A stretch of 64,000 nt of DNA from a virus. Its lineage: Duplodnaviria > Heunggongvirae > Uroviricota > Caudoviricetes. Location of the stretch: the IMG/VR virus record IMGVR_UViG_3300020160_002689, positions 20,134-84,133 of that record. The stretch is one strand, 5' to 3'. Below the pieces are notes generated by a model. That model saw only the letters and a list, made by a program, of their open reading frames with translations. It did no database searches and was not told where the DNA came from. Shown here piece after piece: positions 3,842 through 53,566 of the stretch (position 1 is its first letter; the number at the start of each line of letters is the position of its first letter). The translations under genes were made by a program, and so were the position numbers.

Positions 3842-4087
3842 CTAATTTAATATTTTGTTTATTTTAACCTCTCTTTGAAATTGTATATAGTCACTTAATA
3901 AGTAATCATTCCAATCCTTATTAAGCATGTCAACTGCAGTCTTGTCAAAAAATACTCTTAAATAGATAAGACCATCATTATTCATTACTTCATGTGCCCA
4001 CTTTCCTTGTAACATTTTTATATGAATGGAAAGTATAAAATTATATTGTCTAATAAAATTTTGAAGTTCTTCTTTATTAATTTCCAT
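3842..4087 (-). CDS. hypothetical protein
   Basis: 81-aa ORF in the operon. Confidence 0.35.
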   Translation of the reverse strand: MEINKEELQNFIRQYNFILSIHIKMLQGKWAHEVMNNDGLIYLRVFFDKTAVDMLNKDWNDYLLSDYIQFQREVKINKILN

Positions 4088-9496: not shown

Positions 9497-9524
9497 AAAA
9501 GTCCAGATTACTCTGGACTTTTCA
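9495..9524. terminator. bidirectional terminator hairpin
   Basis: AGTCCAGA-ttac-TCTGGACT stem with an A-run before and a T-run after, between convergent genes. Confidence 0.5.
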
Positions 9525-29274: not shown

Positions 29275-29281
29275 ATATTTG

Positions 29282-29366
29282 TGATTCTAGAAGGATTCGA
29301 ACCTTCACTTGCATTTCTGTCTCCTGGGCCGTAACCAGGTGTTTTCTCCATTTAAACTATAGAACC
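29282..29366 (-). tRNA. tRNA, class-II-like, anticodon possibly ACG (Arg?)
   Basis: Palindromic T-arm GAAGG-TTCGAAT-CCTTC, acceptor GGTTCTA/TAGAATC, D-stem GTTT/AAAC, stem CCTGG/CCAGG with loop UUACGGC; extra 16-nt arm. Confidence 0.4.
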
Positions 29367-29367
29367 A

Positions 29368-29403
29368 ATAAAAAACCCACAAACTTTGAGGTTTGTGGGT
29401 TTC
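29368..29403 (-). terminator. rho-independent terminator (minus-strand orientation)
   Basis: Perfect 11-bp stem AACCCACAAAC / GTTTGTGGGTT with loop TTTGAG, followed on the minus strand by a T-run. Confidence 0.6.
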
Positions 29404-29639
29404 AGATAACTTTTTAATAAAAAATTATGAATACACAAGATCCTCACTCAATTTACTTGAACGACTTGAAGAACTTGACGATGTACTGATAATTGTTTTC
29501 ATTGTTATATATATTAAAATTTTATTCTTTGTTTTATTTTTTTGTAGTCTGAACAGGAATTGCACCTATACACGATCGAAGATACCCCAGAAACTGGATC
29601 GACAACCTATACTGCCTATTATATTATCAGACTAATTTG

Positions 29640-29713
29640 GGTGTAAGACGGGACTTGAACCCGCAATATCCTGGCTCACAACCAGGCGCTTTGACCAATT
29701 AAACTACCTACAC
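29640..29713 (-). tRNA. tRNA-His(GUG) without an encoded G-1
   Basis: Acceptor GTGTAGG/CTTACAC, discriminator C73, D-stem GTTT/AAGC, stem CCTGG/CCAGG with loop UUGUGAG, T-arm GCGGG-TTCAAGT-CCCGT. The base at position -1 is U in the gene. Confidence 0.7.
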
Positions 29714-29715
29714 AG

Positions 29716-29790
29716 TAACCCCGGTGAGACTCGAACTCACAACCCCCGCATTAAAAGTGCGGTGCTCTAAACCAATTGAGCTACGAAGTC
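29716..29790 (-). tRNA. tRNA-Lys(UUU)
   Basis: D-stem GCTC/GAGC, stem CCGCA/TGCGG with loop CUUUUAA, T-arm GTGAG-TTCGAGT-CTCAC; acceptor GACTTCG/CGGGGTT with three G:U pairs. Confidence 0.65.
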
Positions 29791-29872
29791 ATTTTTTAGT
29801 TGTCCCAGATATGGTCAAGAGGTTAACATTGACCATTTCCTTAACTGTATTCCGACAGATGAACTATTTTTG

Positions 29873-29943
29873 CACGCCACACAGGGTTCGAACCTGTAAC
29901 ATTGGTTTTGGAGACCAAGATGATACCATTTCACCAGTGACGT
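29873..29943 (-). tRNA. tRNA-Trp(CCA)
   Basis: Acceptor ACGTCAC/GTGGCGT, D-stem GTGA/TCAT, stem TTGGT/ACCAA with loop CUCCAAA, T-arm ACAGG-TTCGAAC-CCTGT. Confidence 0.7.
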
Positions 29944-29949
29944 ATTTGT

Positions 29950-30050
29950 GGAAATTCCAGTTATCGAAGCTGGGACGCAGAGCTTCTGTGCCCTCGTTCT
30001 AAAGTTTTCTATAATTCCTATTTTAGAAAGTGCTCTGAGCTAAATCTCCA
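29950..30050 (-). tRNA. tRNA-like remnant with a hairpin insertion
   Basis: Acceptor GGAGATT/AATTTCC pairs; 5' TAGCTCAGAGC D-arm remnant; degenerate T-arm CAGC-TTCGATAA-CTGG; internal hairpin TTCTAAA...TTTAGAA. Confidence 0.3.
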
Positions 30051-30054
30051 TTTG

Positions 30055-30126
30055 TGCGGATTATCGGAATCGAACCGATCTCTTAGGGACTTCACGCCTA
30101 CGCTAAACCGTCTCAGCTAAATCCGC
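30055..30126 (-). tRNA. tRNA-Phe(GAA)-like (mismatch in anticodon stem)
   Basis: Acceptor GCGGATT/AATCCGC, D-stem GCTG/TAGC, loop GUGAAGU, T-arm ATCGG-TTCGATT-CCGAT. Confidence 0.5.
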
Positions 30127-30134
30127 AATTTTTG

Positions 30135-30207
30135 GGTGAAAGACGGGGCTCGAACCCGCGACAACTTGAACCACAATCAAGCACTCTACCTCTGAGCTAC
30201 AATCACC
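30135..30207 (-). tRNA. tRNA-His(GUG)-like with genomically encoded G-1
   Basis: 5' G-GTGATTG, D-stem GCTC/GAGT, loop UUGUGGU, discriminator C; two U:U mismatches in the acceptor stem (5-68, 6-67). Confidence 0.5.
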
Positions 30208-30214
30208 ATGTTTG

Positions 30215-30303
30215 GGTGTAAAACGGGATTCGAACCCGCATTAGAGATATGTCTCATTCCAGATCCACAATCTGGTCGGCTGCCTTTACCGGTTACAAAC
30301 ACC
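30215..30303 (-). tRNA. tRNA-His-like (GUG), 88 nt with extra arm
   Basis: Stem CCAGA/TCTGG with loop UUGUGGA; encoded G-1; same ACACCCAAA 3' flank as the other two His-type genes; extra GAGACATATCTC hairpin. Confidence 0.4.
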
Positions 30304-30312
30304 ATATTTGAG

Positions 30313-30385
<73 letters not shown>

Positions 30386-30392
30386 TTTTTTG

Positions 30393-30478
30393 CACAGATT
30401 AAGAGAATCGAACTCTTTACTACCACCCTAAGGTGCCAAGGTTTTGGAGACCTGGTGCATACCATTATGCTAACCCGT
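30393..30478 (-). tRNA. tRNA-like, CCA anticodon with long variable arm (possible pseudo-tRNA or unusual decoder)
   Basis: Acceptor ACGGGTT/AATCTGT, 4-nt D-loop, anticodon stem with a bulge and loop CUCCAAA, variable hairpin CACC-TTAG-GGTG, T-arm AAGAG-TTCGATT-CTCTT. Confidence 0.4.
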
Positions 30479-30893
30479 ATTTTGCTTTAAACCAATTTTG
30501 TGTTTTAGATGTTCTTTTTTTATGACAATTACCACAAACAACCTCACACTTTTCTATTTCTTCAATTATTCTTTTTATTCCATATCTTTTTGATAATGCA
30601 TCTGATATATTAAATTCTTTATCTCTTTGATGGTCAAATTCAAGTACAATTGGATCACTTTCTCCACAATCAGTACAAGAATTATTTTTTAAATAATTTA
30701 ACACATATTCTTTACTTCTAATAGTACTTTCTTTATTATGATTAAATACACATTCTTTATTTTCAGAATACCATTTTGATTGATATGATTTTCTACATAA
30801 TTTACATATATTACTATATCCGTCTTTTTTAGTTTTATTTTTATGAAATTCTAATAATTCTTTAGATTCCTTACACATAACACAATTTTTCAT
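30465..30893 (-). CDS. HNH endonuclease (zinc-finger HNH)
   Basis: N-terminal CxxC...CxxC; EFDHQRDKEFNIS ... CEVVCGNCHKKRT HNH core. Confidence 0.7.
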   Translation of the reverse strand: MKNCVMCKESKELLEFHKNKTKKDGYSNICKLCRKSYQSKWYSENKECVFNHNKESTIRSKEYVLNYLKNNSCTDCGESDPIVLEFDHQRDKEFNISDALSKRYGIKRIIEEIEKCEVVCGNCHKKRTSKTQNWFKAKYGLA

Positions 30894-31019
30894 ATTGACT
30901 TTTAATTTTTTTATATATTAAAAGTCTTTGTTCCCCCTACCGGTAACGATCCGATTTCCATAGGTTAAAAGCCTATTGCATCACCATTAATGCTTAGAGG
31001 GATTTTAATTTCTTTAAAT

Positions 31020-31784: not shown

Positions 31785-32816
31785 TTAAACTCCTGTAAAT
31801 TTAACAGTTACAATAGGAGTTGTTTCATCTAATTTAGTAATGTGTTTTTGTGTTTCTAATATAGATTTTGAATCTTTGTATGCAAAGTCAAACTCTTGTA
31901 TGATACTACTATCAAATTCACCACTTCTATTTAATAGTTCAGAGAATCTTTTCTTATAGGATTCTTTTTCACTTCTTCTCATTGAGTGCCAAAATTTTAA
32001 AGTATCAGTTCTACCTAATTTTCTACCTGCACCATGTGAACAACTTGCTAATGAATCTTCAAGGTTATATGGTTGAGGACTAACTATTAAACTACCTCTT
32101 GACATAGAAAGTGGGATAACAATAGGATCCTTTATTAACTCTGTACTTCCTTTATGATGTATAATAGAATTATCATTAAAACTCAATAAGTTATGACAAC
32201 TATCATGTATGATATAATTAGGATTTTTAATATATCCATTTCTACTTAAAAAGTTAAAACTTTTCTCTAAGAATTCATATCTTCTTTTTACTGCATAATC
32301 TAAAATTCTTTGATATTCAGTTCTATATTTTTCATCTGCAAATTCAATAGGTAACCATTCATTACCTGGATTATGTTCTTGTAACATACTATAATTTTGT
32401 TGATACATATAGATACCTAAGTTTCTACTTCCTGTATGAACTATAATGTATAAATACTTATCAGACTCTTCAATTGATAGAAAGTGATTACCACCACCTA
32501 ATCCTTCATCTGTCATTGTATAAGATTCTTTTTCAAATGCTCTATAATGAACATCTTTATCAAATCTTTTTAAGTAATCTTTTTTATCTATTTTTAAATA
32601 AGCAACACCACAACCCATATCTTTTCCAGTAATAAGTGGATAAAATACATCTGTTGTTTTGAATGAAACCCCAACTGGGATAGCTTTTTCTGAACAATAA
32701 TGTATATCAGGAAATACAGTAATTTTTTCAATATTAGATTCCTGTTCAAAGTGTTCTAAACACTTTAAAGCATTATCTTCTATATCGTTCTTATCTGTAA
32801 AATAATTTACTTTCAT
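31785..32816 (-). CDS. rtcB: RtcB-family RNA 3'-phosphate/5'-OH ligase
   Basis: PDIHYCSEKAIPVG, GKDMGCGVAY, LGGGNHFLSIEE and CSHGAGRKLGR correspond to the RtcB metal-binding and nucleotidyl-His motifs (GSGNHFIE, HNHAGR). At 343 aa it is a compact variant. Confidence 0.75.
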   Translation of the reverse strand: MKVNYFTDKNDIEDNALKCLEHFEQESNIEKITVFPDIHYCSEKAIPVGVSFKTTDVFYPLITGKDMGCGVAYLKIDKKDYLKRFDKDVHYRAFEKESYTMTDEGLGGGNHFLSIEESDKYLYIIVHTGSRNLGIYMYQQNYSMLQEHNPGNEWLPIEFADEKYRTEYQRILDYAVKRRYEFLEKSFNFLSRNGYIKNPNYIIHDSCHNLLSFNDNSIIHHKGSTELIKDPIVIPLSMSRGSLIVSPQPYNLEDSLASCSHGAGRKLGRTDTLKFWHSMRRSEKESYKKRFSELLNRSGEFDSSIIQEFDFAYKDSKSILETQKHITKLDETTPIVTVKFTGV

Positions 32817-36313: not shown

Positions 36314-36655
36314 AATCAAATCATTTATTCGATCATTTATTTCATAGAGTAAACCCATACATTCTCTCTTCAAATCTTTTAATCTATTAAAGTCACTAAC
36401 ACTAATTGGTTTACCTAAAGAATCATCTATACCCTTTATTTCCAATTCTATATTATCTCTGATTAAACCAATCTCAAATAAAATATCACCTTTAATTTCA
36501 TTTATTAATAAACTAAAATAAGGATTACTCATAAGTCTTTCTTTGTATGAAGATACATTGAAACTTTTGATAATCCTTTTAAGATTTTTTATTACTTCTT
36601 CTTCACTACCTGAACTATGTAGTTTTTCAAAGAAGTCTTCTATGTTATTTTTCAT
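36305..36655 (-). CDS. hypothetical protein
   Basis: 116 aa. Confidence 0.4.
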   Translation of the reverse strand: MKNNIEDFFEKLHSSGSEEEVIKNLKRIIKSFNVSSYKERLMSNPYFSLLINEIKGDILFEIGLIRDNIELEIKGIDDSLGKPISVSDFNRLKDLKRECMGLLYEINDRINDLILL

Positions 36656-37521
36656 AATTTTAAATCTCTTTTAACCTTATAAATAAGTGACTGACTAAAT
36701 CCTGTATTGTTTTTTATATTTTTAATATCATGTCCCTCAATGAGTAGATTTTGTATAATGTTATATTTATCACATTTTAATGTTCTATCAACCACTCTAT
36801 CCCATTTTCTTTTCATTATAGGTAAATTTAGAGACAATGCTCTATTCTTGATTTTAAGAACTTCTTTATTTTTAGTTATACATATTTTTGAACATCCATC
36901 AGTTGATATATAAAAATTCTTTTTTGATGATGTTAGTATATAATATGCTTCTTCTAAAAAATATCCCCACGAGGAATCACATTTAAGATATAACAAACCC
37001 TTTTTATTTATACAACCATCACCATCTATAAACCCAATTATCATACTGAATAGTTGATCATCTGTAATGTAATTTGGTATTTTAACAGGATTTTTAGTTT
37101 TATTAGATAACCAATTAAAGTCATTTGATAATTTACTTATACTTTTTCTATCTGATATTACAAGTCTTATATCATCTTTATACTCATATTTACATACTTG
37201 TCCTATATGTTCTTCAATTTTTAAAATATATTCTTTGTCTTTTATTGACAAGTTTATCTGAATATTAGACTCTTTGTATATATGACCATCTGCAAGTATA
37301 AAACCTATCCAATAACAAGTTATATTATCACTATAATCAATTATCTTTGAATACTTTGAGTTATTTTTTGATTCATTAGAACCCTTTTTGATTTTATTTA
37401 AACATGCTATTTTTTGTATATAGTTCCAAGAAAGATTTGTATCTTTAATTATTTCATCTTTAGATTTTTTATTATAATTAGATTTTAAATAATCAATCAA
37501 TTTTATTTTAGATGGTTTCAT
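36652..37521 (-). CDS. LAGLIDADG homing endonuclease (double-motif)
   Basis: Two LAGLIDADG-type motifs: WIGFILADGHI and IGFIDGDGCI. Confidence 0.65.
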   Translation of the reverse strand: MKPSKIKLIDYLKSNYNKKSKDEIIKDTNLSWNYIQKIACLNKIKKGSNESKNNSKYSKIIDYSDNITCYWIGFILADGHIYKESNIQINLSIKDKEYILKIEEHIGQVCKYEYKDDIRLVISDRKSISKLSNDFNWLSNKTKNPVKIPNYITDDQLFSMIIGFIDGDGCINKKGLLYLKCDSSWGYFLEEAYYILTSSKKNFYISTDGCSKICITKNKEVLKIKNRALSLNLPIMKRKWDRVVDRTLKCDKYNIIQNLLIEGHDIKNIKNNTGFSQSLIYKVKRDLKL

Positions 37522-39085: not shown

Positions 39086-40342
39086 TTATATTGTGAAAAG
39101 TTTATCTATAACTTCTTTATCAACCTCAGTTTCATCCTCAATCAATATTTTATTTACTTTACCTCTTGTATCATTAACAATTTCTTTTCTAACTGATAAT
39201 TCAAGTAATAACTTAGTTTGTTCATCTAATTCAATATCTTTATCTAATTTATTCTTTTCTAATACAGATATTGCTATAATAGGATCATCATTATATACTT
39301 CAAGAAGTTTTCTGACTAGATTAATTTGTTCTGATAACTTTAGACCTTTTAGATTAGGTATTGCATTAGGTGCATTGTAAACAAGTCTTGAAAGAAGTTT
39401 AATATCTTCTTCACTTACTTCTTTATCAACATAACCAGGTGTATCATAAAAGTAATGTAAATGTTCCCAAATTAGTTTTAGATTTTGATTTTTATTACTA
39501 TAGATATTTCTGATATAGAATAAATAATTATCTGCTTTTAGTCCTTGTAAATTTTTATCATCAAATACTCTTTGATTACTTGATATTAATTTCCAAAGTT
39601 TAACATCTTTATTTTGTGAAACTTTAAGCCATTCAATACATTGAACATCTTTCTGTATATAAAAGAACTCACTTAGTCTATCAATGTATTTAACAAATAC
39701 CTCTAAATATCTTTCTTGAAATCTAACCTTATATGGACTCAAATAAACATTATCACTTAATGCATATTGTAAGATGTTTAACTCAAATTCAGTGAGAGTA
39801 GCATTTAATTCATCTGCCTTTTTTATTATTCTCAATACAGTATGAGAAGGTGTCTTAATATTAGTGATTCTTAATATACCTGTCTCTAAGAATTTTTCAA
39901 ATTCCTCAGTCCAGTAGTATTCATCATTATCAATTGAATATCCAACTGCAGTACAATTAATATCAAAAGAATCAATTACTACTCTTGGTTCTGGAGAATT
40001 AGATTGATATTTTATATAGTTGAACATACCATCTTTAGTAGATTCATTTATACAATAAAAATCTTTTTCTTTAGTCATAAAAGCAATACCATTATAATCT
40101 TCATACCAAATGTCTTCTTTGGTAGAGTGTTCATAAAGTGTTTGAGATTTATCTTGTACTAACTTCTCTAAAATACCATCAAATAAAAATACATCAATGT
40201 CATTTATAACTGCTTTGTTACCTGATACTTCTTCCCAGATTAGGTTTGCAATAGACCCACCAGTAATAAAACCACTTTGAGGAAGACCCCAAGTGGTTTT
40301 AATTTTATCAATTGCTCTTTTAGCTAATTGTTCTACATTCAT
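39086..40342 (-). CDS. Pol-beta-fold nucleotidyltransferase domain protein
   Basis: N-terminal ITGGSIANLIW...NDIDVFLFDG resembles the GG[SA]...DxD heads of CCA-adding/poly(A) polymerase-type nucleotidyltransferases; 418 aa. Confidence 0.45.
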   Translation of the reverse strand: MNVEQLAKRAIDKIKTTWGLPQSGFITGGSIANLIWEEVSGNKAVINDIDVFLFDGILEKLVQDKSQTLYEHSTKEDIWYEDYNGIAFMTKEKDFYCINESTKDGMFNYIKYQSNSPEPRVVIDSFDINCTAVGYSIDNDEYYWTEEFEKFLETGILRITNIKTPSHTVLRIIKKADELNATLTEFELNILQYALSDNVYLSPYKVRFQERYLEVFVKYIDRLSEFFYIQKDVQCIEWLKVSQNKDVKLWKLISSNQRVFDDKNLQGLKADNYLFYIRNIYSNKNQNLKLIWEHLHYFYDTPGYVDKEVSEEDIKLLSRLVYNAPNAIPNLKGLKLSEQINLVRKLLEVYNDDPIIAISVLEKNKLDKDIELDEQTKLLLELSVRKEIVNDTRGKVNKILIEDETEVDKEVIDKLFTI

Positions 40343-44797: not shown

Positions 44798-46617
44798 TAT
44801 TTCAACATATCTTCTAATTCAGCAACAGTAAGAATTGTTACTCCTAAACTGATTGCTTTTGTTTCTTTACTTGATCCTGACCCTTTGGCTTTCATTACAA
44901 GGTGAGTAGTAGTTTTTGATACAGATGAACCAATTTTACCACCTCTTGATTCAATTACTTCTTCTAAGTCAGCTCTTCTTACTCCAGTGAATACAAATGA
45001 AGTGTTTGCTAAATCATCACCAACTTGTACTGCTTCTACTTTCTCTGCAATTGTTACAGGAAGACCTTTAACAAAAGTAAAGAATTTATCATAACTATCC
45101 AAATAAGATTTTGCAGAAATCTCAGCAAATCCTTCAATTGACATAACTTGTTGTAATGTAGGTTTTTCATCAAACTCTAAAAGAGCTAATTTTTTACTAC
45201 CAAGTCCTTTGAAGAAACCTGTAGCATGTTGTAGTTTAGATAACTCAACATTTGTAGTGGCTTTTCTGATTGAGTCAAAAACAATAGCTGCTTTTCTTTT
45301 ACCAAATCTATCAATAGATTCTAAATCTTTTTTAGTTGCATTTAATACAGCTTCAATTGTTTGATAACCAGCATCCCATAATTGAGTAATAACTCCTTCA
45401 CCAACATTGTCTGCTTCTAAAATTTCAAAGAAAGCAACAATTTGTTTTAATTTTTGTTCATCAGTTTCAGTTAAAGTGATTACTTCAATACCAGCTTCAT
45501 TCCATCCAAGTTCAACACCTTCAATAGTAGGCATAACAAAATCAACTGATTTTAAAACTTCAACAATTTTAGGAATAACCATACCACTTCGGATTACTCT
45601 AATTTTTGATCCAATACCTAATCCATTTTCTTTAACAAATTTTGCATTATTTCCAGTTACATTTGAAACAGTAACACCATCTAAGTTTATAGGTTCCACT
45701 TGTAGAACAGGTTTTAATAAACCTTGTTTAGAAATATTCCAAGTTATTCCTGTTACTGTTGTTATTTTATTTTCAACAAAAGAAATGTGTTTAAATGCTC
45801 TTGAAAAACAAGGATTTGATGTTGAGGTTTCTCTACCTAATTCTTCTTGTAGTTTTAGATTATTTATTTCAATAATAAGACCATCAATCTCATAATCAAT
45901 AGACCATTCCTTAAATAATTCAATTAATAAACTTTCTGATAAATCACTTATTTTTGAAATGTGATAGGAAACTTTAATCTCTTGATTACTATTTAATTCA
46001 TCAATGAGTTCTTTTTTTGTAGATAATCCATCAATTATACCACCATATTTTATATAATCAATATCTTCTAATATATCATGTATAGTTTTAGAATTCAACA
46101 TCCCTGCAACTAAGTTTCTAGGATTAGCAAATTCTTTGGAGTATTTATCTAAAAATACTTTTTTAGACATTATAGCTTCTCCATAAGTTATGGAAAAGTT
46201 TGTATTTTTATTAAGTTTATTATTTATTAATTTATAATGTTCATTGGAGTTTTGTCCAATAAAACCATCACCTCTTGTAGTTGCAGTATCTTTTGTTTCA
46301 TCAACACATAAAGATAATCCATCAAACTTAGGAGTAATAATTACTTCTTCATTTTTAGATATTCCTTTTAGCCTACACCAATCAGATATTTCCTCCATAG
46401 TTTTAATCTTATTCATACTAAACATAGGAATAGGTAATTTAACCTTTCTAGAATCATCCAATACTTCAATTCCTACTTTATTAAAGTATTCATTTTCTGG
46501 ATCATACTCTAAAAGAGTTTCTAGTAATTGATCATAATCATAATCAGACATTATAGGATTTCCTTGTCTGTATTTATCATTAGCTTCTTCTAATTTTGCT
46601 ACTATTCTATCTATCAT
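44797..46617 (-). CDS. ligA: NAD-dependent DNA ligase
   Basis: Adenylation motif ITPKFDGLS (KxDG), OB/HhH regions and a C-terminal BRCT (FVFTGVRRADLEEVIESRGGKIGSSVSKTTTHLV); 606 aa. Confidence 0.9.
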   Translation of the reverse strand: MIDRIVAKLEEANDKYRQGNPIMSDYDYDQLLETLLEYDPENEYFNKVGIEVLDDSRKVKLPIPMFSMNKIKTMEEISDWCRLKGISKNEEVIITPKFDGLSLCVDETKDTATTRGDGFIGQNSNEHYKLINNKLNKNTNFSITYGEAIMSKKVFLDKYSKEFANPRNLVAGMLNSKTIHDILEDIDYIKYGGIIDGLSTKKELIDELNSNQEIKVSYHISKISDLSESLLIELFKEWSIDYEIDGLIIEINNLKLQEELGRETSTSNPCFSRAFKHISFVENKITTVTGITWNISKQGLLKPVLQVEPINLDGVTVSNVTGNNAKFVKENGLGIGSKIRVIRSGMVIPKIVEVLKSVDFVMPTIEGVELGWNEAGIEVITLTETDEQKLKQIVAFFEILEADNVGEGVITQLWDAGYQTIEAVLNATKKDLESIDRFGKRKAAIVFDSIRKATTNVELSKLQHATGFFKGLGSKKLALLEFDEKPTLQQVMSIEGFAEISAKSYLDSYDKFFTFVKGLPVTIAEKVEAVQVGDDLANTSFVFTGVRRADLEEVIESRGGKIGSSVSKTTTHLVMKAKGSGSSKETKAISLGVTILTVAELEDMLK

Positions 46618-46618
46618 A

Positions 46619-46804
46619 TTAAAATTCTTTTTCTATATTTTTACCTCTTTTTTCCATATCTTCTCTAATCAACTTTTCAATATATCTTGATCTCTTGGGT
46701 ATTTCATTTTTATCCAAGTAATCATCCAATTTATCTAATAACTTTTCATTAACAGAAAATGATATTTTTCTTTTCTTTTTATCCTCAGATTTCTTATTTG
46801 CCAT
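46619..46804 (-). CDS. ribbon-helix-helix (CopG/Arc-like) DNA-binding protein
   Basis: KISFSVNEKLLDKLDDYL...SRYIEKLIRED is a typical RHH beta-strand plus two helices. Confidence 0.5.
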   Translation of the reverse strand: MANKKSEDKKKRKISFSVNEKLLDKLDDYLDKNEIPKRSRYIEKLIREDMEKRGKNIEKEF

Positions 46805-46893
46805 TGTATAATTTTTATTTTACAAATATATATATAAAATTTCAATTTATTACAAAAAAAGTATAAAATTATTACTTTTTGAGTTTTTGAAAC

Positions 46894-46919
46894 TTAATAT
46901 ATACTATAACAAAAATAAG
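46894..46919 (+). promoter_or_regulatory. promoter-like motif TTAATATATACTATAACAAAAATAAG in divergent intergenic region
   Basis: Same family as the 16966 and 19908 motifs. Confidence 0.4.
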
Positions 46920-46929
46920 TAATTAAATT

Positions 46930-47097
46930 ATGAAAACAAAGAGTAAAAAGGAAAAAGTGATAGTATCATTATCAATAGACCAAAAATTAGATGATTATAT
47001 GAATGAAATGTTTGAAAATAAGTCTCAATATATTGAGTGGTTGGTAGAACAGGACTTATTAAAAAATGGAGTTAATTTAGAAAAAATAATATTGTAA
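46930..47097 (+). CDS. ribbon-helix-helix protein (55 aa), below the ORF-track cutoff
   Basis: IVSLSIDQKLDDYMNEMFENKSQYIEWLVEQDL is paralogous to the RHH at 46619. It ends 4 nt before the GIY-YIG gene. Confidence 0.4.
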   Translation: MKTKSKKEKVIVSLSIDQKLDDYMNEMFENKSQYIEWLVEQDLLKNGVNLEKIIL

Positions 47098-47101
47098 TAA
47101 T

Positions 47102-47842
47102 ATGGAAAGAAAAGATAATGGATATTGGACTTATGAGAGATGTAGAGAAGAAGCTTTAAAATATATTAGTTCATCTGAATTACAAAGAAAGTGTAGTAGT
47201 GTATATAATAAAATTTATATTAATGGTTGGAATGAACTTACTCAACATTTTATTAAAATTGGGAATAGATATAAAAGATTGGTGTATGTTTATGAATTTA
47301 GTGATAATTTTTTCTATGTAGGTCTTACAGGTAATATCAATAGAAGAATGAAACAACATGTTAATGATATTAATAGTTCTGTGTATAAACATTCAAATTT
47401 AACAAAGTTAAATCCAAATTTATTAATAGTATCAGATTATATTGATGTTGATAATTCAATAGAGTTGGAAAAATTATATTTGGAAAAATATATTAAAGAT
47501 GGATGGAATTCACTTAATAAAGTAAAAACAGGTAATATTGGCTCTTGTAATATAAAATGGAACAAAGAAGAATGTTTTAAAGAGAGTATAAAATATTTAA
47601 CAATAACAGATTATCAGAGGAATTCTAAAAGTTCATATAATACCGCACTTAAAAATGGTTGGATTGATGAAATATGCTCTCATATGAAAAGAAGAAAGTG
47701 TAAAAATGGTGAGTATGATAATAAGAATAAATGTTCTATTGAAGCAAGAAAATACAAAAGTAAGTCAGAGTTTCATAAAAATAATTGGAGTGCTTGGAAT
47801 TACTCAAAAAAGAATGGTTGGTTAGATGAATTTTACAACTAA
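47102..47842 (+). CDS. GIY-YIG nuclease (homing-endonuclease-like, with NGW repeats)
   Basis: VYVYEFSDNFFYVGLTGNINRRMKQH (GIY-YIG core); C-terminal repeated KNGW(I/L)DE modules. Confidence 0.7.
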   Translation: MERKDNGYWTYERCREEALKYISSSELQRKCSSVYNKIYINGWNELTQHFIKIGNRYKRLVYVYEFSDNFFYVGLTGNINRRMKQHVNDINSSVYKHSNLTKLNPNLLIVSDYIDVDNSIELEKLYLEKYIKDGWNSLNKVKTGNIGSCNIKWNKEECFKESIKYLTITDYQRNSKSSYNTALKNGWIDEICSHMKRRKCKNGEYDNKNKCSIEARKYKSKSEFHKNNWSAWNYSKKNGWLDEFYN

Positions 47843-47891: not shown

Positions 47892-49058
47892 ATGGATTTT
47901 GTAAATAAATATAGTGATAAAGAAAAGAAAAAAAATGGAGTTTTTTATACTCCAAAAGATATAGCTGAGTTTATGGCTAGTAAAAGTAAATTTGATGATG
48001 GTAAAGGTATATGGTTAGATCCTTGTTGTGGATTAGGTATATTATCAATTATGTTGGCCTCAATTCAAGATGATCCAATTGATTTTATAGAAAATAGATT
48101 GATAATCAATGATATGGATAAATTACAACTGGATATAGCTTTAAATAATTTTAAAGAAAAATTTGGTGTTGTTCCAAAAAGTTTCAATGAAGATTTTTTA
48201 TTATATGATTTTAAATGTGATTATGTTATAATGAATCCACCTTATTTTAGATATAAGGATAATGATATATATGGATACTTCATAGAAAAAGTTTGTAGTA
48301 TATCAAATGGATTTATCAGTATAAATCCAATATCATTTACAAATGGTTCAAAATTTAGAAAAATTAGAAAATCTATCTTAGATTTTAATTCTATTAATTT
48401 ATATCATTTTGATAATATACCAGGGCATATTTTTGATGATGCTGATGTTAGAGTTTCTATTATCATATGTCATAATAAGTCAAATGATAGAAAGACAACC
48501 ACACAAATTAGATGGCAATCAAAAAAGAGAGAAGAAATGATTAAAAACTTAGATAATAATTTAGATGATGCTATTTTTACAGAAGATATTTTCTACAAAA
48601 CATCACCAAATACAACACATTTTATACATGATAACACTTTATTAAATTATGTGGTTAGTAAATCAGATTATCCAATTTATATTACTAGTTTAACAAGATA
48701 TTTTATAACTGGATCAACAAAAAAGTTGGATAGGAATGGACAGATAGAAATTTTTATGAAAGATGAAGATTCATATAATAAGGCTTTAATTATGATAAAT
48801 AGTTCATATCTTTATTGGTGGTGGAGAACATCAGATAGTTCAATGTCTTTGACTAAAAGAACTTTATTATCTCTACCATGGATTGATTTTGTATATGAAA
48901 ATTCTATAATATGTGAAATAGTGAATAGTGAAGTAGTGAATAAGGTCTATAAAATGAATGCTGGAAAATCACAAGAGAATATAAAACATAACAAAGAATT
49001 GGTTAAAAAATTAAATTCTTTATTCATACCAGAGGATTTTATTAAATTACAAGATTAA
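47892..49058 (+). CDS. N6-adenine DNA methyltransferase (gamma class, type II-like)
   Basis: VFYTPKDIAEF (motif X), LDPCCGLG (motif I), MNPPYF (motif IV NPPY). Confidence 0.8.
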   Translation: MDFVNKYSDKEKKKNGVFYTPKDIAEFMASKSKFDDGKGIWLDPCCGLGILSIMLASIQDDPIDFIENRLIINDMDKLQLDIALNNFKEKFGVVPKSFNEDFLLYDFKCDYVIMNPPYFRYKDNDIYGYFIEKVCSISNGFISINPISFTNGSKFRKIRKSILDFNSINLYHFDNIPGHIFDDADVRVSIIICHNKSNDRKTTTQIRWQSKKREEMIKNLDNNLDDAIFTEDIFYKTSPNTTHFIHDNTLLNYVVSKSDYPIYITSLTRYFITGSTKKLDRNGQIEIFMKDEDSYNKALIMINSSYLYWWWRTSDSSMSLTKRTLLSLPWIDFVYENSIICEIVNSEVVNKVYKMNAGKSQENIKHNKELVKKLNSLFIPEDFIKLQD

Positions 49059-49090
49059 ATAAAAAAATCCCTTTAAAGGGATTTTTTTTA
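49059..49090. terminator. bidirectional terminator (perfect palindrome)
   Basis: AAAAAAATCCCTTTAAAGGGATTTTTTTT between convergent genes. Confidence 0.6.
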
Positions 49091-50017
49091 TTATTTTTTA
49101 GTTAAAAAGTGTTGTATAGATACTTCACCAACATGTTGTTTAATTTTACTGAACTCTATATATGTTCCATAACTATCTTCTTTTAAATCACTCTTTTTGA
49201 AAGAGAAAGTTGCATTATTATGTATGTATTTATATCTACTAGAAGTTCTACCACCTCTTTGTGTAATATCTTCAATATCATTCTTATTTACATAATGTTT
49301 ATTATCTATTAAAGATAGTTTATTTTCAGTAAAAACTTTTCTAGTATTTCTACCACAACTTCTAACTTCAATTTTAAAAGAAAAACTCTTTTTATATTCA
49401 TCAATAGTCATTATATTTAAGTTCCCATTATTATCATAACTAATGATATAATCAAATTCATTTGTAATAATATCTTCAATGTTAAATATTTTATTATGAC
49501 CTTGATTTTCTAAGATATTATAATTCTCTAATTCACCACCAATTTCAAATAAAGATTTTACATATTCTTTATATTTCTCACTTTTTGATGTAAAATCAAC
49601 AGGTTTCCCATTATCATTATAAGTAAATCCACAAGATTTACCATAAGCTACAGGTTCTTTTATTTCAAATATCTCAACCTTATTATCAATCTTATGTGTT
49701 ATAATTAAGTCAGGCATTCCAGAACCACCATCTTGTTTAATTGAATATAATTCATTTTCATAAATTCCATTACCAATATAGACACAGCCTAAATGGTTAG
49801 ATATAGCTTGAATTATCATAGTTTCAACTATTCTTCCTGGTTGAAATAAGACACCATTGTTTATTCTATTATTTATATCATTTTTTAGAAATGGTAAATT
49901 TTCCAAAATATAAGATACTTCATCAATTCTCTCAAAATTATCTTTAACTGAATTTTTAACTTTATTCAGTTCTATCAAATTTATTTTTAAATTACCACTT
50001 TTTAGACTATCTATCAT
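49091..50017 (-). CDS. putative PD-(D/E)xK restriction endonuclease (candidate partner of the adjacent methyltransferase)
   Basis: GMPDLIITHKIDNKVEIFEIKEP contains a PD...ExK arrangement; convergent with the N6A methyltransferase. Confidence 0.45.
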   Translation of the reverse strand: MIDSLKSGNLKINLIELNKVKNSVKDNFERIDEVSYILENLPFLKNDINNRINNGVLFQPGRIVETMIIQAISNHLGCVYIGNGIYENELYSIKQDGGSGMPDLIITHKIDNKVEIFEIKEPVAYGKSCGFTYNDNGKPVDFTSKSEKYKEYVKSLFEIGGELENYNILENQGHNKIFNIEDIITNEFDYIISYDNNGNLNIMTIDEYKKSFSFKIEVRSCGRNTRKVFTENKLSLIDNKHYVNKNDIEDITQRGGRTSSRYKYIHNNATFSFKKSDLKEDSYGTYIEFSKIKQHVGEVSIQHFLTKK

Positions 50018-50357: not shown

Positions 50358-51851
50358 ATGGCAATTCAAAGTTCATTTCCAAAGGTAGCTGATCAAATAA
50401 TATCTTATAATAAAAATATTGTTGAAATACTATCTAAAATTAGTTCATTAACAACAACAACTGAGTCATCAGTAAACCTTCAAATATATGATGCAAATGG
50501 TGTGTTGAGAAATTTCACTATGCCTTCATTCACATCATTGAAAGGTGAGATTGATAGATTAAATAATAATATAAATTCATTGTATGGTATTGATGGTGCT
50601 GGTTCTTTAATACAAACAACAACACAAAACAAATATAAGAAACTTATCACAGTTGATTTGAATAGGGATCCTACTCCAATTAGTAGTATTGGTTTTATAT
50701 CAACCTTTAAATCAAGTCCAAACTGGTTTTTTGATTCATTAATGGATCCAATGATTTCAGTAGAATTGGACTTATCCAACAAAATTGAGGATAATGTAAG
50801 AAAATGTTTAATTAGAAGATACATTGTTGATTTTGAAAAAAATGCAGATGGTTCATTAACTACTAATGGTCAATCAGCATTAAATTCATATAATCAATTA
50901 TTTAGAGGAAATGCAAATATCATAATTTCAGAATTTGAAAATTGGCACAAAACTACTACTGGTGTTCTAAATGCTATTAATCCTAAGTTTGATGAACAGA
51001 TTTTTGATTTAGAACCAAACAACTTATTATATGATGGTCAATTTAGTGTATTGAGAATACAAGAAGATAGACTAAATAAAAAACTTTGGTGTGTATTAGA
51101 TACACTTGAATATTTAGTAGTTGATGCAGGACAAACTAAACAATTGGCTGTTGGAGATGAGTTAATTATAAATACTACTCAATCATCTACTAGATATAAA
51201 ATCATTGAAGTTTCTACTGTTGAGAGTAATCCAAGAGTTAGAGTTGAAAGATTAGAAGGAATTGAACCAATTCCAGTTGGTATTGGAACATTAAAAGTTT
51301 ATTCTGATGTTATCTATACCAAAAAATGTAGAGTGAGTGTTGGTTACAATGAAAGAAATGTTCTTTTCATTAAACCAATTAATACTGATAATCACTTAGT
51401 TGCTAAGAAATGGAGTTTAGGTACTGGTTACTATACAAATGATTTAAGATTAGATTCTACATCTACTGCAAATGGTTTGTCAATGGAACAATTCTATATT
51501 GATTATGTTTATGATTATGGTGTTGTTTTACAAGATTTAGTTGCTAAGAAAACTCCTAATGCATTAGGTGGTACTCCTGTTGCACCAGCTTTGAGTGTTG
51601 ATAACTTTAAAGTTGTTCAAATTAATAAACACCTTACTGATTCACCAGATTCTAATTTAGTTAAACAAAAACATAACTATCAGTTATCTTTAAAATCAGA
51701 GATACAACAAATACAAGAAGCAATTTTATCAAGAAATAAAACTGCTAAATTTACTAAGTATAAGTCAGATTCTGCAAAGAAACAAGCTGATTTAGAGATT
51801 GAAGGATTGGTATCTAAAAAGATAGTAAAAGTAAATTACTTGCATCAGTAA
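50358..51851 (+). CDS. structural protein, frame-0 part of a probably frameshifted gene
   Basis: 497-aa ORF ending ...GLVSKKIVKVNYLHQ*; the -1 frame is open from 51803 onward. Confidence 0.5.
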   Translation: MAIQSSFPKVADQIISYNKNIVEILSKISSLTTTTESSVNLQIYDANGVLRNFTMPSFTSLKGEIDRLNNNINSLYGIDGAGSLIQTTTQNKYKKLITVDLNRDPTPISSIGFISTFKSSPNWFFDSLMDPMISVELDLSNKIEDNVRKCLIRRYIVDFEKNADGSLTTNGQSALNSYNQLFRGNANIIISEFENWHKTTTGVLNAINPKFDEQIFDLEPNNLLYDGQFSVLRIQEDRLNKKLWCVLDTLEYLVVDAGQTKQLAVGDELIINTTQSSTRYKIIEVSTVESNPRVRVERLEGIEPIPVGIGTLKVYSDVIYTKKCRVSVGYNERNVLFIKPINTDNHLVAKKWSLGTGYYTNDLRLDSTSTANGLSMEQFYIDYVYDYGVVLQDLVAKKTPNALGGTPVAPALSVDNFKVVQINKHLTDSPDSNLVKQKHNYQLSLKSEIQQIQEAILSRNKTAKFTKYKSDSAKKQADLEIEGLVSKKIVKVNYLHQ

Positions 51852-53557
51852 CTCAAGAGATTATTGACCTTTCAAAAGATCCTAAAACTAAAGTTGATCC
51901 TCAATTTAATGTAAGAGGTTTCTGGAATATTCCAGAAGCGGTCATTACAACTGGAACTAGACCACAAGAAATTGTACAATTTAGGGTTCAGTACAGAAAA
52001 GTAAGTAAAGATGGTAAAGAATCACCAGTTGAAACTTTTTCAATAACAGATTCTCAAAGTAAAGCAGCTTTCTCTAACTGGTCTGAATATAAAACAGATG
52101 CAAGAAAGAGAGTTTACAATAGTACAACTGGTGAGTACACTTGGCAAATTGAAGATGTTACATCAGCAGATACTCCAAATATAAATCAATTTGATTTACC
52201 TATTTTACCAAATGAAAGAATTGAGTTTAGAATTAAATCAATTTCAGAAGTTGGTTGGCCAGAAGCTGCAGTAGAATCAGATTGGTCTGATATATTGACA
52301 GTAGACTTCCCAGATGACTTAAATACAGTTCTTAATGAGAATGACTTTATACTAAGAGAAGCTACTAAGGAAGACTTAAAAACAAGTATGAATGCAGAAT
52401 TATCTGCTAAAGGTTTAGATGAACACTTATCAGATACAGTAACAATTAATAATGTTACTTATCATCATGAAGCTAAGAAAGTTCTTTCTGGTTTTCAAGA
52501 TGAAAATGGTGTTTCATTAGATTTATATACTTATATTCAAAAGTTAACAGATAGAATTACTGCATTAGAAGAAAAAATCAAGAGAGCTAAAGGTGAACTT
52601 GAAATTATTATTCTTAGAAATAACCAAGAGTTTGTTGTATCAAATGGTTCAGAGACAACATTCAATGTTGAGTGTGAAGATTATTTAGATTCATATACTG
52701 CAACAGGTGCACCTACTGGTAGAGTTTATCAAAATAATATTTATATAATTAAAGACTTTATTGTTAAATTTAGAAATAAAGCAACTGAATCAGTATTAGG
52801 TTTATTATCAAATAGAAATTATATTGATGGTACAGGAAATGTTTATAATTCAACAGCACCACAAACTTTCTGGGTAAATAATCAAGATGAATTAAAAACA
52901 GTTGATGTAAGTGGTCAAACAAGAACACAACTTGATAATCAATTTATTTGGATGGTTAACTATGATTCTATTACACAAACAACAGTTTCTAAATTATCTG
53001 AAAATATTGGTAATGCATTTAATGTAGATAATTCAAACTCAGTAACTAATGTACTTTCATCAAATGAGTATAATATAGGTTACAATGAGTCATCAATACT
53101 GGCATTTATTGGTAATAATAAATCATTATTGGATCCAACAAAGTGGAATGATACTACGGTATCAGTTGCATCAACAACTAAATTCTTGACTACAATTCAT
53201 CCAGTTATTAAAGACCTTGAAAGTATTCAAGAAGTAAATAGTGATAAGATTCATACAGTTGCTGCAGGTGATAAAAATTCTATAATAGTTCCATTGAATA
53301 TTTATTTCAAGATGAACTCATTAGATAGTAGTCAAAATGGATTAAACTATCAGTATATTGATTTGAATAATTCAACTCAGACAGTTAAACATGTTAAAAA
53401 ATTAAAGTTTTTTGTAGAGAATGAATCTGAAAATAGACCATTCACCTTTACTCTTAAATTTAATTTAAACAGAAATAAAGTTGCAGTTAGAAAATTCAAT
53501 AATATAGGTGGTGGACCTGCATACATTGATGATTATTCAACAACAAGTAAAAAATAA
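51803..53557 (+). CDS. structural protein, -1-frame continuation (no ATG; the ORF-track entry starts at a TTG at 52295)
   Basis: The -1 frame is open with coding-like sequence (QEIIDLSKDPKTKVDPQFNVRGFWNIPEAV...) for 164 codons upstream of the listed start, and it contains no Met. Confidence 0.45.
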
Positions 53558-53566
53558 TAAGTCATA

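What the first reader, a model, noticed from the sequence alone, without database searches (positions are those of the whole stretch)
47892..50017. Candidate type II restriction-modification pair in convergent orientation
An N6A methyltransferase with clear FxTP, DPCCGLG and NPPY motifs (47892..49058) converges on a 308-aa ORF with a PD...EIFEIKE (PD-(D/E)xK) motif (49091..50017). They are separated only by a perfect palindromic bidirectional terminator. This is the classic layout of a type II R-M system, carried here by a phage alongside two C5 and another N6A methyltransferase in the same 64 kb.
Basis: partly seen in the sequence, partly recalled or inferred. Interest (0 to 1): 0.55.

Follow-up and report, generated by a model that had tools for sequence, protein, structure and literature searches.

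The report
Phage-borne type II restriction-modification gene pair
A phage carries a DNA adenine methyltransferase next to an unnamed nuclease that folds like the restriction enzyme HhaI and is always found beside (or fused to) this kind of methyltransferase, so it is very probably a real but otherwise ordinary restriction-modification system built on an unannotated enzyme family.

Summary
A 388-aa gamma-class N6-adenine MTase (47892..49058 +) converges on a 308-aa ORF (49091..50017 -) across a perfect 12-bp-stem hairpin.

- D103, E118 and K120 stay invariant down to 20% identity.
- Every homologue with enough flanking DNA (21/21 loci) sits beside this MTase.
- Five distant branches sit beside homologous 485-514-aa MTases, in both M-to-R and R-to-M order.
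- One protein fuses the two domains.
- The MTase family also occurs without the nuclease; the reverse was never seen.
- Both genes are under purifying selection.

The pair lies in a ~3.4-kb cassette, with two small RHH-like genes and a GIY-YIG endonuclease gene. Related phages lack the cassette, and an 11-bp direct repeat bounds it.

Not confirmed: "another N6A MTase". The hairpin is not conserved across loci.

Recognition sequence, enzyme activity and biological role are untested. Verdict: a new member of a known kind, of modest interest.

The parts
47892..49058 (+). M gene: 388-aa gamma-class N6-adenine DNA methyltransferase. Motif X FYTP at 47943..47954, motif I DPCCGLG at 48018..48038, motif IV NPPY at 48234..48245, target-recognition region in the C-terminal half.
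   Evidence: Pfam N6_Mtase E=1.4e-9 with Eco57I and MTS. PADLOC type II MTase PDLC03219 E=4.9e-63, residues 11-380. PHROG DNA methyltransferase families. dN/dS 0.116 against L035.
49061..49088 (.). Perfect palindromic hairpin (12-bp stem, 4-nt loop) with T-runs on both strands. Likely a bidirectional intrinsic terminator between the convergent genes.
   Evidence: Terminator scan reports it on both strands. RNAfold gives -12.7 kcal/mol. Other loci have non-homologous hairpins or a 0-5-bp gap, so it is local and not a defining part of the module.
49091..50017 (-). R gene: 308-aa predicted PD-(D/E)xK restriction endonuclease with an R.HhaI-like fold. Catalytic candidates are E65, D103 (49709..49711), E118 (49664..49666) and K120 (49658..49660).
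46930..47097 (+). rhh55: 55-aa ribbon-helix-helix-like gene at the head of the rhh55 - GIY-YIG - MTase transcription unit. Tentative regulator of the module.
   Evidence: Similar 49-54-aa ORFs lie directly upstream of the MTase, on the same strand, in three other contexts: L015/L016, L022 and L029/L030. Their Pfam RHH hits are only sub-threshold (E 0.004-0.02). rhh55-like genes also precede homing-endonuclease-like genes in L028, so the assignment is uncertain.
47102..47842 (+). 246-aa GIY-YIG homing-endonuclease-like gene lying between rhh55 and the MTase. A passenger of the cassette, or possibly its mobility agent.
   Evidence: Pfam GIY-YIG E=2e-8; phrog_20046 E=8e-27. It is present only in the window's close lineage.
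46619..46804 (-). rhh61: 61-aa ribbon-helix-helix gene, divergent from rhh55 and abutting the ligase start codon. It is the left-hand end of the cassette.
   Evidence: Pfam RHH_3 E=3.7e-4. Absent from the empty-site relatives.
46805..46929 (.). 125-bp divergent intergenic region between rhh61 and rhh55, with a 17-nt inverted repeat (46829..46845 / 46887..46903) that carries a TTGAAA hexamer on each strand. Presumed divergent promoter/operator.
   Evidence: Inverted repeat I1, 88% complementary. Promoter-like hits on both strands, but promoter-like sites are not enriched over shuffles in this AT-rich DNA, so this is weak evidence.
46607..46617 (-). Left copy of the 11-bp direct repeat (ATGATAGATAG on the minus strand), which is the first codons of the ligase gene. 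Cassette boundary.
   Evidence: Read from the sequence. Alignment with the empty sites of L034 and L036.
50007..50017 (-). Right copy of the same 11-bp direct repeat, which is the first codons of the R gene. The R gene has taken over the upstream region that precedes the ligase gene in phages lacking the cassette.
   Evidence: In the window, the stretch from the end of small91 to the R start aligns with the stretch from the end of small91 to the ligase start in L034 and L036.

Best explanation
This is a two-gene type II restriction-modification system carried by a large, AT-rich, tRNA-rich phage.

Mechanism. The 388-aa enzyme is a gamma-class SAM-dependent N6-adenine DNA methyltransferase. It methylates an adenine in a specific, still unknown, sequence on the phage's own DNA. 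The 308-aa protein is a Mg2+-dependent PD-(D/E)xK endonuclease with catalytic residues D103, E118 and K120, assisted by E65. It cuts the same sequence when it is unmethylated. Its fold most resembles R.HhaI, which works as a monomer that nicks the two strands of a short palindrome one after the other, so I infer the same mode of action here.

Location. The pair sits in a ~3.4-kb accessory cassette with two small RHH-like genes and a GIY-YIG endonuclease gene. The cassette was inserted exactly at the start codon of the phage's NAD-ligase gene.

Biological role. Incoming and replicating phage DNA is methylated or hemimethylated and therefore protected. Host DNA and co-infecting phage DNA are not. 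The likely role is to attack host DNA or competing phages. A selfish addiction effect that stabilises the cassette is an alternative or additional role.

What is shown: gene structure, motifs, fold similarity, conserved catalytic residues, conserved linkage and fusion, purifying selection, and the insertion.

What is inferred: enzymatic activity, shared specificity of the two proteins, monomeric action, regulation by the RHH protein, and the biological role.
For: MTase:
- Pfam N6_Mtase, Eco57I and MTS hits.
- PADLOC type II MTase, 211 bits, over residues 11-380.
- Motif order X-I-IV followed by a C-terminal region.

Nuclease:
- Confident model, pLDDT 85.3 and pTM 0.72.
- Its only significant Foldseek hit in the PDB is R.HhaI (E=7.9e-7, probability 1.0).
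- D103 lies just before strand 104-108, and E118/K120 lie at the end of strand 113-119. A helix carrying E65 precedes them. This matches the published R.HhaI geometry: D34 at the start of beta2, E46 and K48 at the end of beta3, and helix alphaA (PMC7026639).
- D103, E118 and K120 are invariant among 18 sequences at 20-51% identity to the window protein.

Linkage:
- The MTase is adjacent in 21/21 informative loci whose outer flanks differ from the window's. The orientation is either convergent or divergent.
- Distant nuclease homologues abut homologous 485-514-aa N6A MTases in Mycoplasmopsis californica (M-to-R, 2-bp gap), gut contigs (R-to-M), L043 (R-to-M, overlapping) and L044 (M-to-R).
- P0228 (896 aa) fuses the MTase to the nuclease domain (hhalign probability 97%, E=7e-11, D...ExK retained).
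- The asymmetry is as expected for a toxic nuclease. An MTase-only branch exists. A nuclease-only locus was never seen.

Selection: dN/dS is 0.116 for M and 0.137 for R at unsaturated divergence. Identities of the two genes co-vary with r=0.91.

Mobility: empty sites in L034, L036, L037 and L038, and an 11-bp direct repeat at the cassette junctions.

Precedent for virus-borne complete R-M systems and their roles: PMC7253447.
Against: - No enzymatic activity, methylation motif or cleavage site is known for any member of either family.
- The nuclease has no sequence similarity to any characterised restriction enzyme. The fold match to R.HhaI is moderate (TM 0.34-0.40, 17% identity), and the domain order may differ from that of R.HhaI.
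- R.HhaI, HinP1I and MspI pair with C5 MTases and cut GC-only sites. This enzyme pairs with an N6A MTase.
- Adjacency and fusion show functional coupling. They do not prove that the two proteins share one recognition sequence.
- Palindrome depletion in the window (CTAG, GATC, CATG) cannot be attributed to this system.
- In the sister contig L028 the R gene has 6 non-synonymous and 0 synonymous changes, against 6 and 16 in M (Fisher p=0.0025). This hints that R may be relaxed or attenuated in some lineages.
Confidence: 0.85

Rival explanations
1. The MTase is a solitary anti-restriction enzyme that protects the phage from host restriction. The 308-aa PD-(D/E)xK protein is an unrelated nuclease, such as a recombination, repair, homing or non-specific host-DNA-degrading enzyme, that merely lies next to it.
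Against: The nuclease gene is never seen without the MTase (21/21 loci). It stays next to homologous MTases across 20-28% identity, in five gene arrangements that include a fusion. The best structural matches are restriction endonucleases, with R.HhaI well ahead of the others.
Confidence: 0.07
2. The pair descends from an R-M system, but the R gene in this phage is inactive or attenuated. Only the methyltransferase would then matter, for self-protection.
For: R genes often decay while their M genes persist. In the sister contig L028 the R gene has 6 non-synonymous and 0 synonymous changes, against 6 and 16 in M. The window also carries a frameshift in a neighbouring structural gene, so this particular sequence may not be a fully fit genome, or it may contain assembly errors.
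Against: The window's R ORF is full length and keeps every invariant residue of the family. At five of the six positions that changed in L028 it keeps a residue seen elsewhere in the family, and four of those match the 85%-identical relative P0002. dN/dS is 0.137 against L035.
Confidence: 0.05
3. The nuclease is modification-dependent (type IIM or type IV-like), or has a different specificity from the MTase. The MTase would then mark or protect DNA in a way not matched to the nuclease's site.
For: Shared specificity was not tested. Some PD-(D/E)xK monomers, for example DpnI, are methyl-dependent; DpnI is mentioned in PMC7026639.
Against: A methyl-directed nuclease linked to, and in one case fused with, an MTase that creates its substrate would be self-destructive. 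The strict co-occurrence and co-divergence (r=0.91) are what is expected of a cognate pair.
Confidence: 0.03

Closest known systems
R.HhaI (PDB 6UKE; Horton et al. 2020, PMC7026639), and more distantly the monomeric enzymes MspI and HinP1I
   Different: There is no detectable sequence similarity, even with a profile. This protein has about 55 extra N-terminal helical residues, and its third beta-rich region is C-terminal, whereas R.HhaI's third domain is inserted between beta9 and beta10. The partner MTase is N6-adenine gamma-class, not C5. Monomeric action is not shown here.
Orthodox type II R-M systems with gamma-class N6A MTases (N6_Mtase PF02384 / Eco57I PF07669 type, TaqI-like architecture)
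   Same: Separate adjacent M and R genes. Motif order X-I-IV followed by a C-terminal target-recognition region. Strong PADLOC type II MTase hit. The module is mobile, with variable gene order.
   Different: The R protein belongs to no Pfam, NCBIfam, PADLOC or PHROG family. The TaqI_C specificity-domain hit is insignificant (E=0.61). No HTH controller (C) protein is present. Instead, an RHH-like small ORF precedes M in some loci.
Virus-encoded complete R-M systems: chloroviruses (for example CviAI) and clade A marseilleviruses (PMC7253447)
   Same: A lytic-type virus carries an adjacent MTase and REase that it acquired horizontally and has maintained under selection. The proposed roles are host DNA degradation or a weapon against competitors.
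   Different: Those are eukaryotic viruses with GATC-type, DpnII-like systems. This one is a bacteriophage with an unrelated nuclease family of unknown specificity. Neither packaging of the enzymes nor their expression timing is known here.
Type IIC/IIG fused RM enzymes (Eco57I-like)
   Same: The distant relative P0228 joins a homologous N6A MTase and the nuclease domain in one 896-aa polypeptide.
   Different: In P0228 the MTase is N-terminal and the PD-(D/E)xK domain C-terminal. From memory, this is the reverse of typical Eco57I- or BpuSI-like enzymes. The window's system has two separate genes.

Membership tests
Type II restriction-modification system | Separate, adjacent genes for a DNA MTase and an endonuclease, with the linkage conserved in relatives | tested here: met
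   Adjacent in 21/21 informative loci. Adjacent in five distant branches, and fused in one protein.
Type II restriction-modification system | The MTase has SAM-binding and catalytic motifs of a DNA amino-methyltransferase | tested here: met
   DPCCGLG and NPPY. Pfam N6_Mtase E=1.4e-9. PADLOC MTase_II E=4.9e-63.
Type II restriction-modification system | The endonuclease and the MTase recognise the same DNA sequence, and methylation blocks cleavage | not testable with these tools
   Needs biochemistry or methylome data. REBASE was not available.
Type II restriction-modification system | The R gene is not tolerated without M (asymmetric occurrence) | tested here: met
   An MTase-only branch exists. 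No nuclease-only locus was found among the loci with enough DNA. This is indirect evidence, not a toxicity test.
PD-(D/E)xK nuclease superfamily | Conserved D...(D/E)xK on the beta2-beta3 hairpin of an alpha-beta-beta-beta core | tested here: met
HhaI/HinP1I/MspI-like monomeric restriction endonucleases | Structural similarity of the catalytic and recognition beta-sheet domains | tested here: met
HhaI/HinP1I/MspI-like monomeric restriction endonucleases | Acts as a monomer with a single active site, cutting the two strands one after the other | not testable with these tools
   Inferred from the fold only. Needs SEC-MALS and nicking kinetics.
HhaI/HinP1I/MspI-like monomeric restriction endonucleases | Sequence-level family membership | tested here: not met
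   No Pfam, NCBIfam, PADLOC or PDB sequence hit, even with a 30-sequence profile. I therefore do not file it as a member, only as having the same fold class.
Gamma-class N6-adenine DNA MTases (TaqI-like) | Motif order X, I, IV, followed by a C-terminal target-recognition domain | tested here: met
   FYTP at 18-21, DPCCGLG at 43-49, NPPY at 115-118, then about 270 further residues. The match covers profile positions 46-463 of 504 in PDLC03219.
Gamma-class N6-adenine DNA MTases (TaqI-like) | TaqI_C-type specificity domain | tested here: inconclusive
   PF12950 E=0.61, 10.8 bits, against a cutoff of 26.5.
C-protein-controlled R-M systems | Small HTH controller gene upstream of R | tested here: not met
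   The 91-aa ORF upstream of R has no family hit and belongs to the phage backbone. RHH-like ORFs precede M in 4 contexts, but only with sub-threshold RHH scores, and they are absent from other loci.

The most novel reading that the evidence does not exclude
The 308-aa protein founds an uncharacterised family of R.HhaI-fold, probably monomeric, restriction endonucleases that partner with N6-adenine rather than C5 methyltransferases. The family would have a new specificity. It spreads as a compact module among AT-rich environmental phages, Mycoplasmopsis and Firmicutes-like genomes, and sometimes exists as a single fused polypeptide. In phages it would serve as an offensive weapon against host or rival-phage DNA. 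It would be controlled by a ribbon-helix-helix regulator rather than a classical HTH C-protein, and moved together with a GIY-YIG homing endonuclease.
Probability: 0.3. Interest if true: 0.5.

Novelty: new member of a known kind. Interest (0 to 1): 0.38.

Why it matters
It gives a function and a testable catalytic site to a family of proteins that every public source calls hypothetical. That family comprises 49 clusters at 90% identity of close relatives and 63 representatives at 50% identity, which include the distant ones. It may be a source of a new restriction specificity.

It adds a clear example of a complete type II R-M system carried in an accessory cassette of a large environmental phage. 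The filled and empty sites can be compared directly, and a fused variant exists elsewhere. This is useful material for studying how phages acquire and use restriction systems against hosts or competitors. It does not overturn any current view.

Tried and rejected
- Megablast of the 4.5-kb region against INPHARED phages found no match, so no annotated relative could be used.
- Sequence and profile searches of the 308-aa protein against Pfam, NCBIfam, PADLOC, PHROGs and PDB sequences gave only chance-level hits. One example is the Sac7d/7kD DNA-binding hit at E of about 0.05-0.3, caused by an 'FTYDDNGK' hairpin. I rejected these as uninformative.
BFVD returned only one uncharacterised phage protein.
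- Source names for both families were all 'hypothetical' or 'predicted RNA methylase'.
- I tried to infer the recognition site from palindrome depletion. CTAG (0.28), GATC (0.39) and CATG (0.43) are depleted, but this cannot be tied to this system: the phage protects itself and the cassette is an insertion.
- I considered the hairpin terminator as a module feature and rejected it. The hairpins in other loci are not homologous, and some loci have a 0-5-bp gap.
- I considered the 91-aa ORF upstream of R as a C-protein and rejected it. It is a backbone gene that is also present in the empty-site relatives.
- I looked for a second N6A MTase in the window and found none.
- I considered stop-codon recoding to explain the '1066-aa' gene call. 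The real cause is a 1-nt poly-A length difference.
Full report
OBSERVATION

- The first, 47892..49058 (+), encodes 388 aa with FYTP (18-21), DPCCGLG (43-49) and NPPY (115-118).
- The second, 49091..50017 (-), encodes 308 aa with P102-D103 ... E118-I-K120-E121.

Between the two stop codons lies AAAAAAATCCCT-TTAA-AGGGATTTTTTT (49061..49088). It is a perfect 12-bp stem with T-runs on both sides. The terminator scan scores it on both strands: 3 sites in 4 kb against 0.4 expected.

The window is phage-like.
- It has 21 tRNA genes.
- It encodes Thg1, RtcB, an NAD-dependent ligase, and LAGLIDADG and GIY-YIG endonuclease-like genes.
- It has virion-structural and tail-spike PHROG hits.
- Its relatives occur in IMG/VR viral contigs.

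Two C5 MTases are confirmed. A further N6A MTase is not: a six-frame scan for motif IV finds only this one.

THE METHYLTRANSFERASE

Pfam gives N6_Mtase (E=1.4e-9) together with Eco57I and MTS. PADLOC gives a type II MTase model at 211 bits over residues 11-380. The motif order is X, I, IV, followed by a long C-terminal region, which is the gamma-class (TaqI-like) architecture. The TaqI_C specificity-domain hit is insignificant (E=0.61). About 150 homologues of 388-391 aa exist in metagenomes. More distant relatives are 485-524 aa long at 33-39% identity.

THE 308-AA PROTEIN

It has no significant hit in Pfam, NCBIfam, PADLOC, PHROGs or PDB sequences, even when a profile is used. It has 49 close homologues of 305-326 aa at 48-100% identity, and none of them is named. 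Their alignment shows invariant Q59-P-G, E65-T66, Q95, G97-G-S99, D103, E118-I119 and E121. K120 is R in only two sequences.

An AlphaFold2 model built on this alignment is confident, with pLDDT 85.3 and pTM 0.72.
- Foldseek against the PDB gives a single significant hit, R.HhaI (6uke, E=7.9e-7, probability 1.0).

The R.HhaI paper (PMC7026639) describes:
- a monomer with three five-stranded beta-sheet domains;
- an SD-X11-EAK site, with D34 at the start of beta2 and E46/K48 at the end of beta3;
- a helix alphaA preceding that hairpin.

In my model a helix (63-75) carries E65. D103 immediately precedes strand 104-108. E118 and K120 close strand 113-119. This is the same arrangement, with X14 spacing in place of X11.

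An exhaustive profile search found 63 representatives. In an alignment of 18 sequences at 20-51% identity to the window protein, D103, E118 and K120 remain invariant and E65 is nearly invariant. G97, G137, N175, E217, R219, N224 and R254 are also invariant. Those further residues may contribute to DNA binding or recognition, but this is an untested guess.

LINKAGE, THE DECISIVE TEST

I fetched 23 loci carrying a close homologue from viral, metagenome and genome collections.
- In all 21 with enough DNA, the MTase is the immediate neighbour. The arrangement is convergent, except in L020 where it is divergent. Two further look-ups behaved the same way: L029/L030 are divergent and L031/L032 convergent.
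- The outer flanks (ligase, GIY-YIG, small91, p497) are shared only with the 85-100% relatives. The pair therefore moves as a unit.
- Every locus checked for base composition is AT-rich, at 22-31% GC.

Distant nuclease homologues are also linked to MTases.
- In Mycoplasmopsis californica (LR215022.1), the 377-aa homologue lies 2 bp downstream of a 514-aa N6_Mtase/Eco57I MTase. That MTase is homologous to the window's (E=9e-34).
- In gut-metagenome contigs, the 351-aa homologue precedes a 493-aa MTase.
- In L043, a 311-aa homologue overlaps a 485-aa MTase. In L044, a 504-aa MTase precedes a 431-aa homologue.
- P0228 (896 aa) is a single polypeptide. Its N-terminal MTase is homologous to the window's (E=1e-34). 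Its C-terminal nuclease domain aligns at hhalign probability 97% (E=7e-11), and GGxGxxD...IEFKEP, GRN and RGG..YK are all retained.

The reverse does not hold. A roughly 62-65%-identical MTase branch (P0123, P0146) occurs with no nuclease homologue within 5 kb. R never without M, and M sometimes without R, is the pattern expected of a toxic endonuclease and its protective methylase.

Both genes are under purifying selection. dN/dS is 0.116 for M and 0.137 for R at dS of about 0.5-0.6. Their divergences co-vary with r=0.91 over 14 pairs that are not independent. M is consistently better conserved than R.

CONTEXT IN THIS PHAGE

Relatives with syntenic structural genes and ligase (L034, L036, L037, L038) have the small91 gene directly followed by the ligase gene. 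The gap is about 30 bp in L034 and L036. The window's lineage has about 3.4 kb inserted there. In window order the insert contains:
- rhh61 (-)
- a 125-bp divergent region
- rhh55 (+)
- GIY-YIG (+)
- M (+)
- the hairpin
- R (-)

In the window, the DNA from the end of small91 to the R start codon aligns with the DNA that leads into the ligase start codon in the empty-site phages. An exact 11-bp direct repeat, ATGATAGATAG on the minus strand, marks both junctions (46607..46617 and 50007..50017). R has therefore taken over the ligase's original upstream region. The ligase now follows rhh61.

The intergenic hairpin is not conserved. Other loci have unrelated hairpins or only 0-5 bp between the genes.

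A 49-54-aa RHH-like ORF lies immediately upstream of M in L015/L016, L022 and L029/L030. This suggests that an RHH-M operon is ancestral for part of the family, and that the GIY-YIG gene was inserted between them in the window's lineage. The support is weak, however:
- the RHH scores are below Pfam thresholds;
- other loci lack such an ORF;
- rhh55-like genes also precede homing-endonuclease-like genes in L028.

MECHANISM AND ROLE

The best-supported reading is an orthodox type II R-M system. M methylates an adenine in a short site, and R cleaves the unmethylated site using D103, E118 and K120. Probability about 0.85.

The HhaI-like fold suggests a monomer that cuts the two strands one after the other. 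This is inference only, at perhaps 0.5.

For a phage, methylated parental DNA and hemimethylated progeny DNA are protected, while host and rival-phage DNA are not. Chloroviruses use such systems to degrade host DNA, and marseilleviruses appear to use them against competitors (PMC7253447). Either role, or a selfish stabilisation of the cassette, is possible here. None was tested.

RIVAL EXPLANATIONS

- An orphan MTase next to an unrelated nuclease. The linkage and the fusion contradict this.
- A decayed R gene. The intact invariant residues and the dN/dS contradict this. Even so, the L028 allele shows 6 non-synonymous and 0 synonymous changes against 6 and 16 in M (Fisher p=0.0025), so relaxation may occur in some lineages.
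- A methyl-dependent nuclease. This would be self-destructive next to its own MTase.

COMPARISON AND NOVELTY

It works like a type II R-M system and meets every membership criterion that can be tested by computation. Shared specificity and activity remain untested.

The nuclease belongs to the PD-(D/E)xK superfamily and resembles R.HhaI in fold. It fails sequence-level membership of any described REase family, so I do not file it in the HhaI, MspI or HinP1I families. Unlike those enzymes, its partner is an N6A MTase.

Restriction endonucleases are notoriously diverse in sequence, and complete R-M systems on viruses are known. This is therefore a new member of a known kind. Its modest added interest comes from three things: an unannotated family, a clean pair of filled and empty sites, and variants in several gene orders plus a fusion. 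I could not consult REBASE, which may already list some members as putative.

Noticed in passing
window 51811..51816 (within 50358..53558): The 497-aa and 420-aa ORFs are two halves of one 1066-aa gene; both match phrog_29329. The window has A5 where the 99.99%-identical contig L001 has A6, and this one-base difference in a poly-A tract splits the gene. It could be an assembly error, a natural variant or a slippage site.
   Followed up: yes
window 46607..46617 and 50007..50017: An exact 11-bp direct repeat (ATGATAGATAG on the minus strand) forms the first codons of both the ligase gene and the R gene, and bounds the ~3.4-kb cassette that related phages L034, L036, L037 and L038 lack. It looks like a microhomology or target-duplication junction.
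   Followed up: partly
window 46619..47097; L028 3697..4142 and 10172..10324; L016, L022 and L029 upstream of M: Small paralogous RHH-like genes (rhh61 and rhh55) recur in these phages. They are found next to homing-endonuclease-like genes (GIY-YIG, NUMOD, DUF723) and directly upstream of the MTase in other contexts. They may be regulators that travel with mobile cassettes.
   Followed up: partly
window 14756..16102 (+) and 16095..16949 (-): A 448-aa ORF with no Pfam or PHROG hit converges on, and overlaps by 8 bp, the 284-aa C5 cytosine MTase. This could be a second R-M pair in the same phage. It was not investigated beyond family searches.
   Followed up: partly
window 4087..4875 (-), 9508..10335 (-), 10575..13516 and 29281..31002, 31785..32816 (-), 39086..40342 (-): Two tRNA arrays (21 genes, one with an odd anticodon call) lie alongside Thg1-like tRNA-His guanylyltransferase, RtcB ligase, an RlaP/Pol-beta-type nucleotidyltransferase and another nucleotidyltransferase. 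Together these look like a tRNA repair and maturation toolkit, possibly a counter to host anticodon nucleases.
   Followed up: no
L028 9200..10126 versus window 49091..50017: In a 98%-identical sister contig the R gene has six non-synonymous changes (S4C, N27D, N53D, A71D, G100R, N179K) and no synonymous ones. The adjacent M gene has 6 non-synonymous and 16 synonymous changes (Fisher p=0.0025). The changes are derived in L028. This hints at relaxed or adaptive evolution, or attenuation, of R there.
   Followed up: partly
L024-L027 (4322..6768) and the P0146 contig: The MTase-only branch (about 62-65% identity) is always flanked by a 201-210-aa gene upstream and a 174-aa gene downstream on the same strand, although the wider contexts differ. 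The L024-type 210-aa protein has no Pfam hit. It could be an alternative partner, but this is unknown.
   Followed up: partly
L040 327..3017 (P0228): An 896-aa single polypeptide joins an N-terminal N6A MTase and a C-terminal domain of the 308-aa nuclease family. It is a natural RM fusion, found on a 4.6-kb metagenomic contig beside a pseudouridine synthase gene.
   Followed up: partly
whole window: The palindromes CTAG, GATC and CATG have observed/expected ratios of 0.28, 0.39 and 0.43. GATATC has 0.14 and CTTAAG is absent (0 observed against 8.8 expected). This probably reflects avoidance of host restriction systems and is not attributable to the system studied.
   Followed up: partly
window 36652..37521 (-) and 47102..47842 (+): The phage carries free-standing homing-endonuclease-like genes, one LAGLIDADG and one GIY-YIG. 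The sister contig L028 has additional NUMOD and DUF723 genes at positions that are empty in the window, which shows active endonuclease-gene turnover in this phage group.
   Followed up: no
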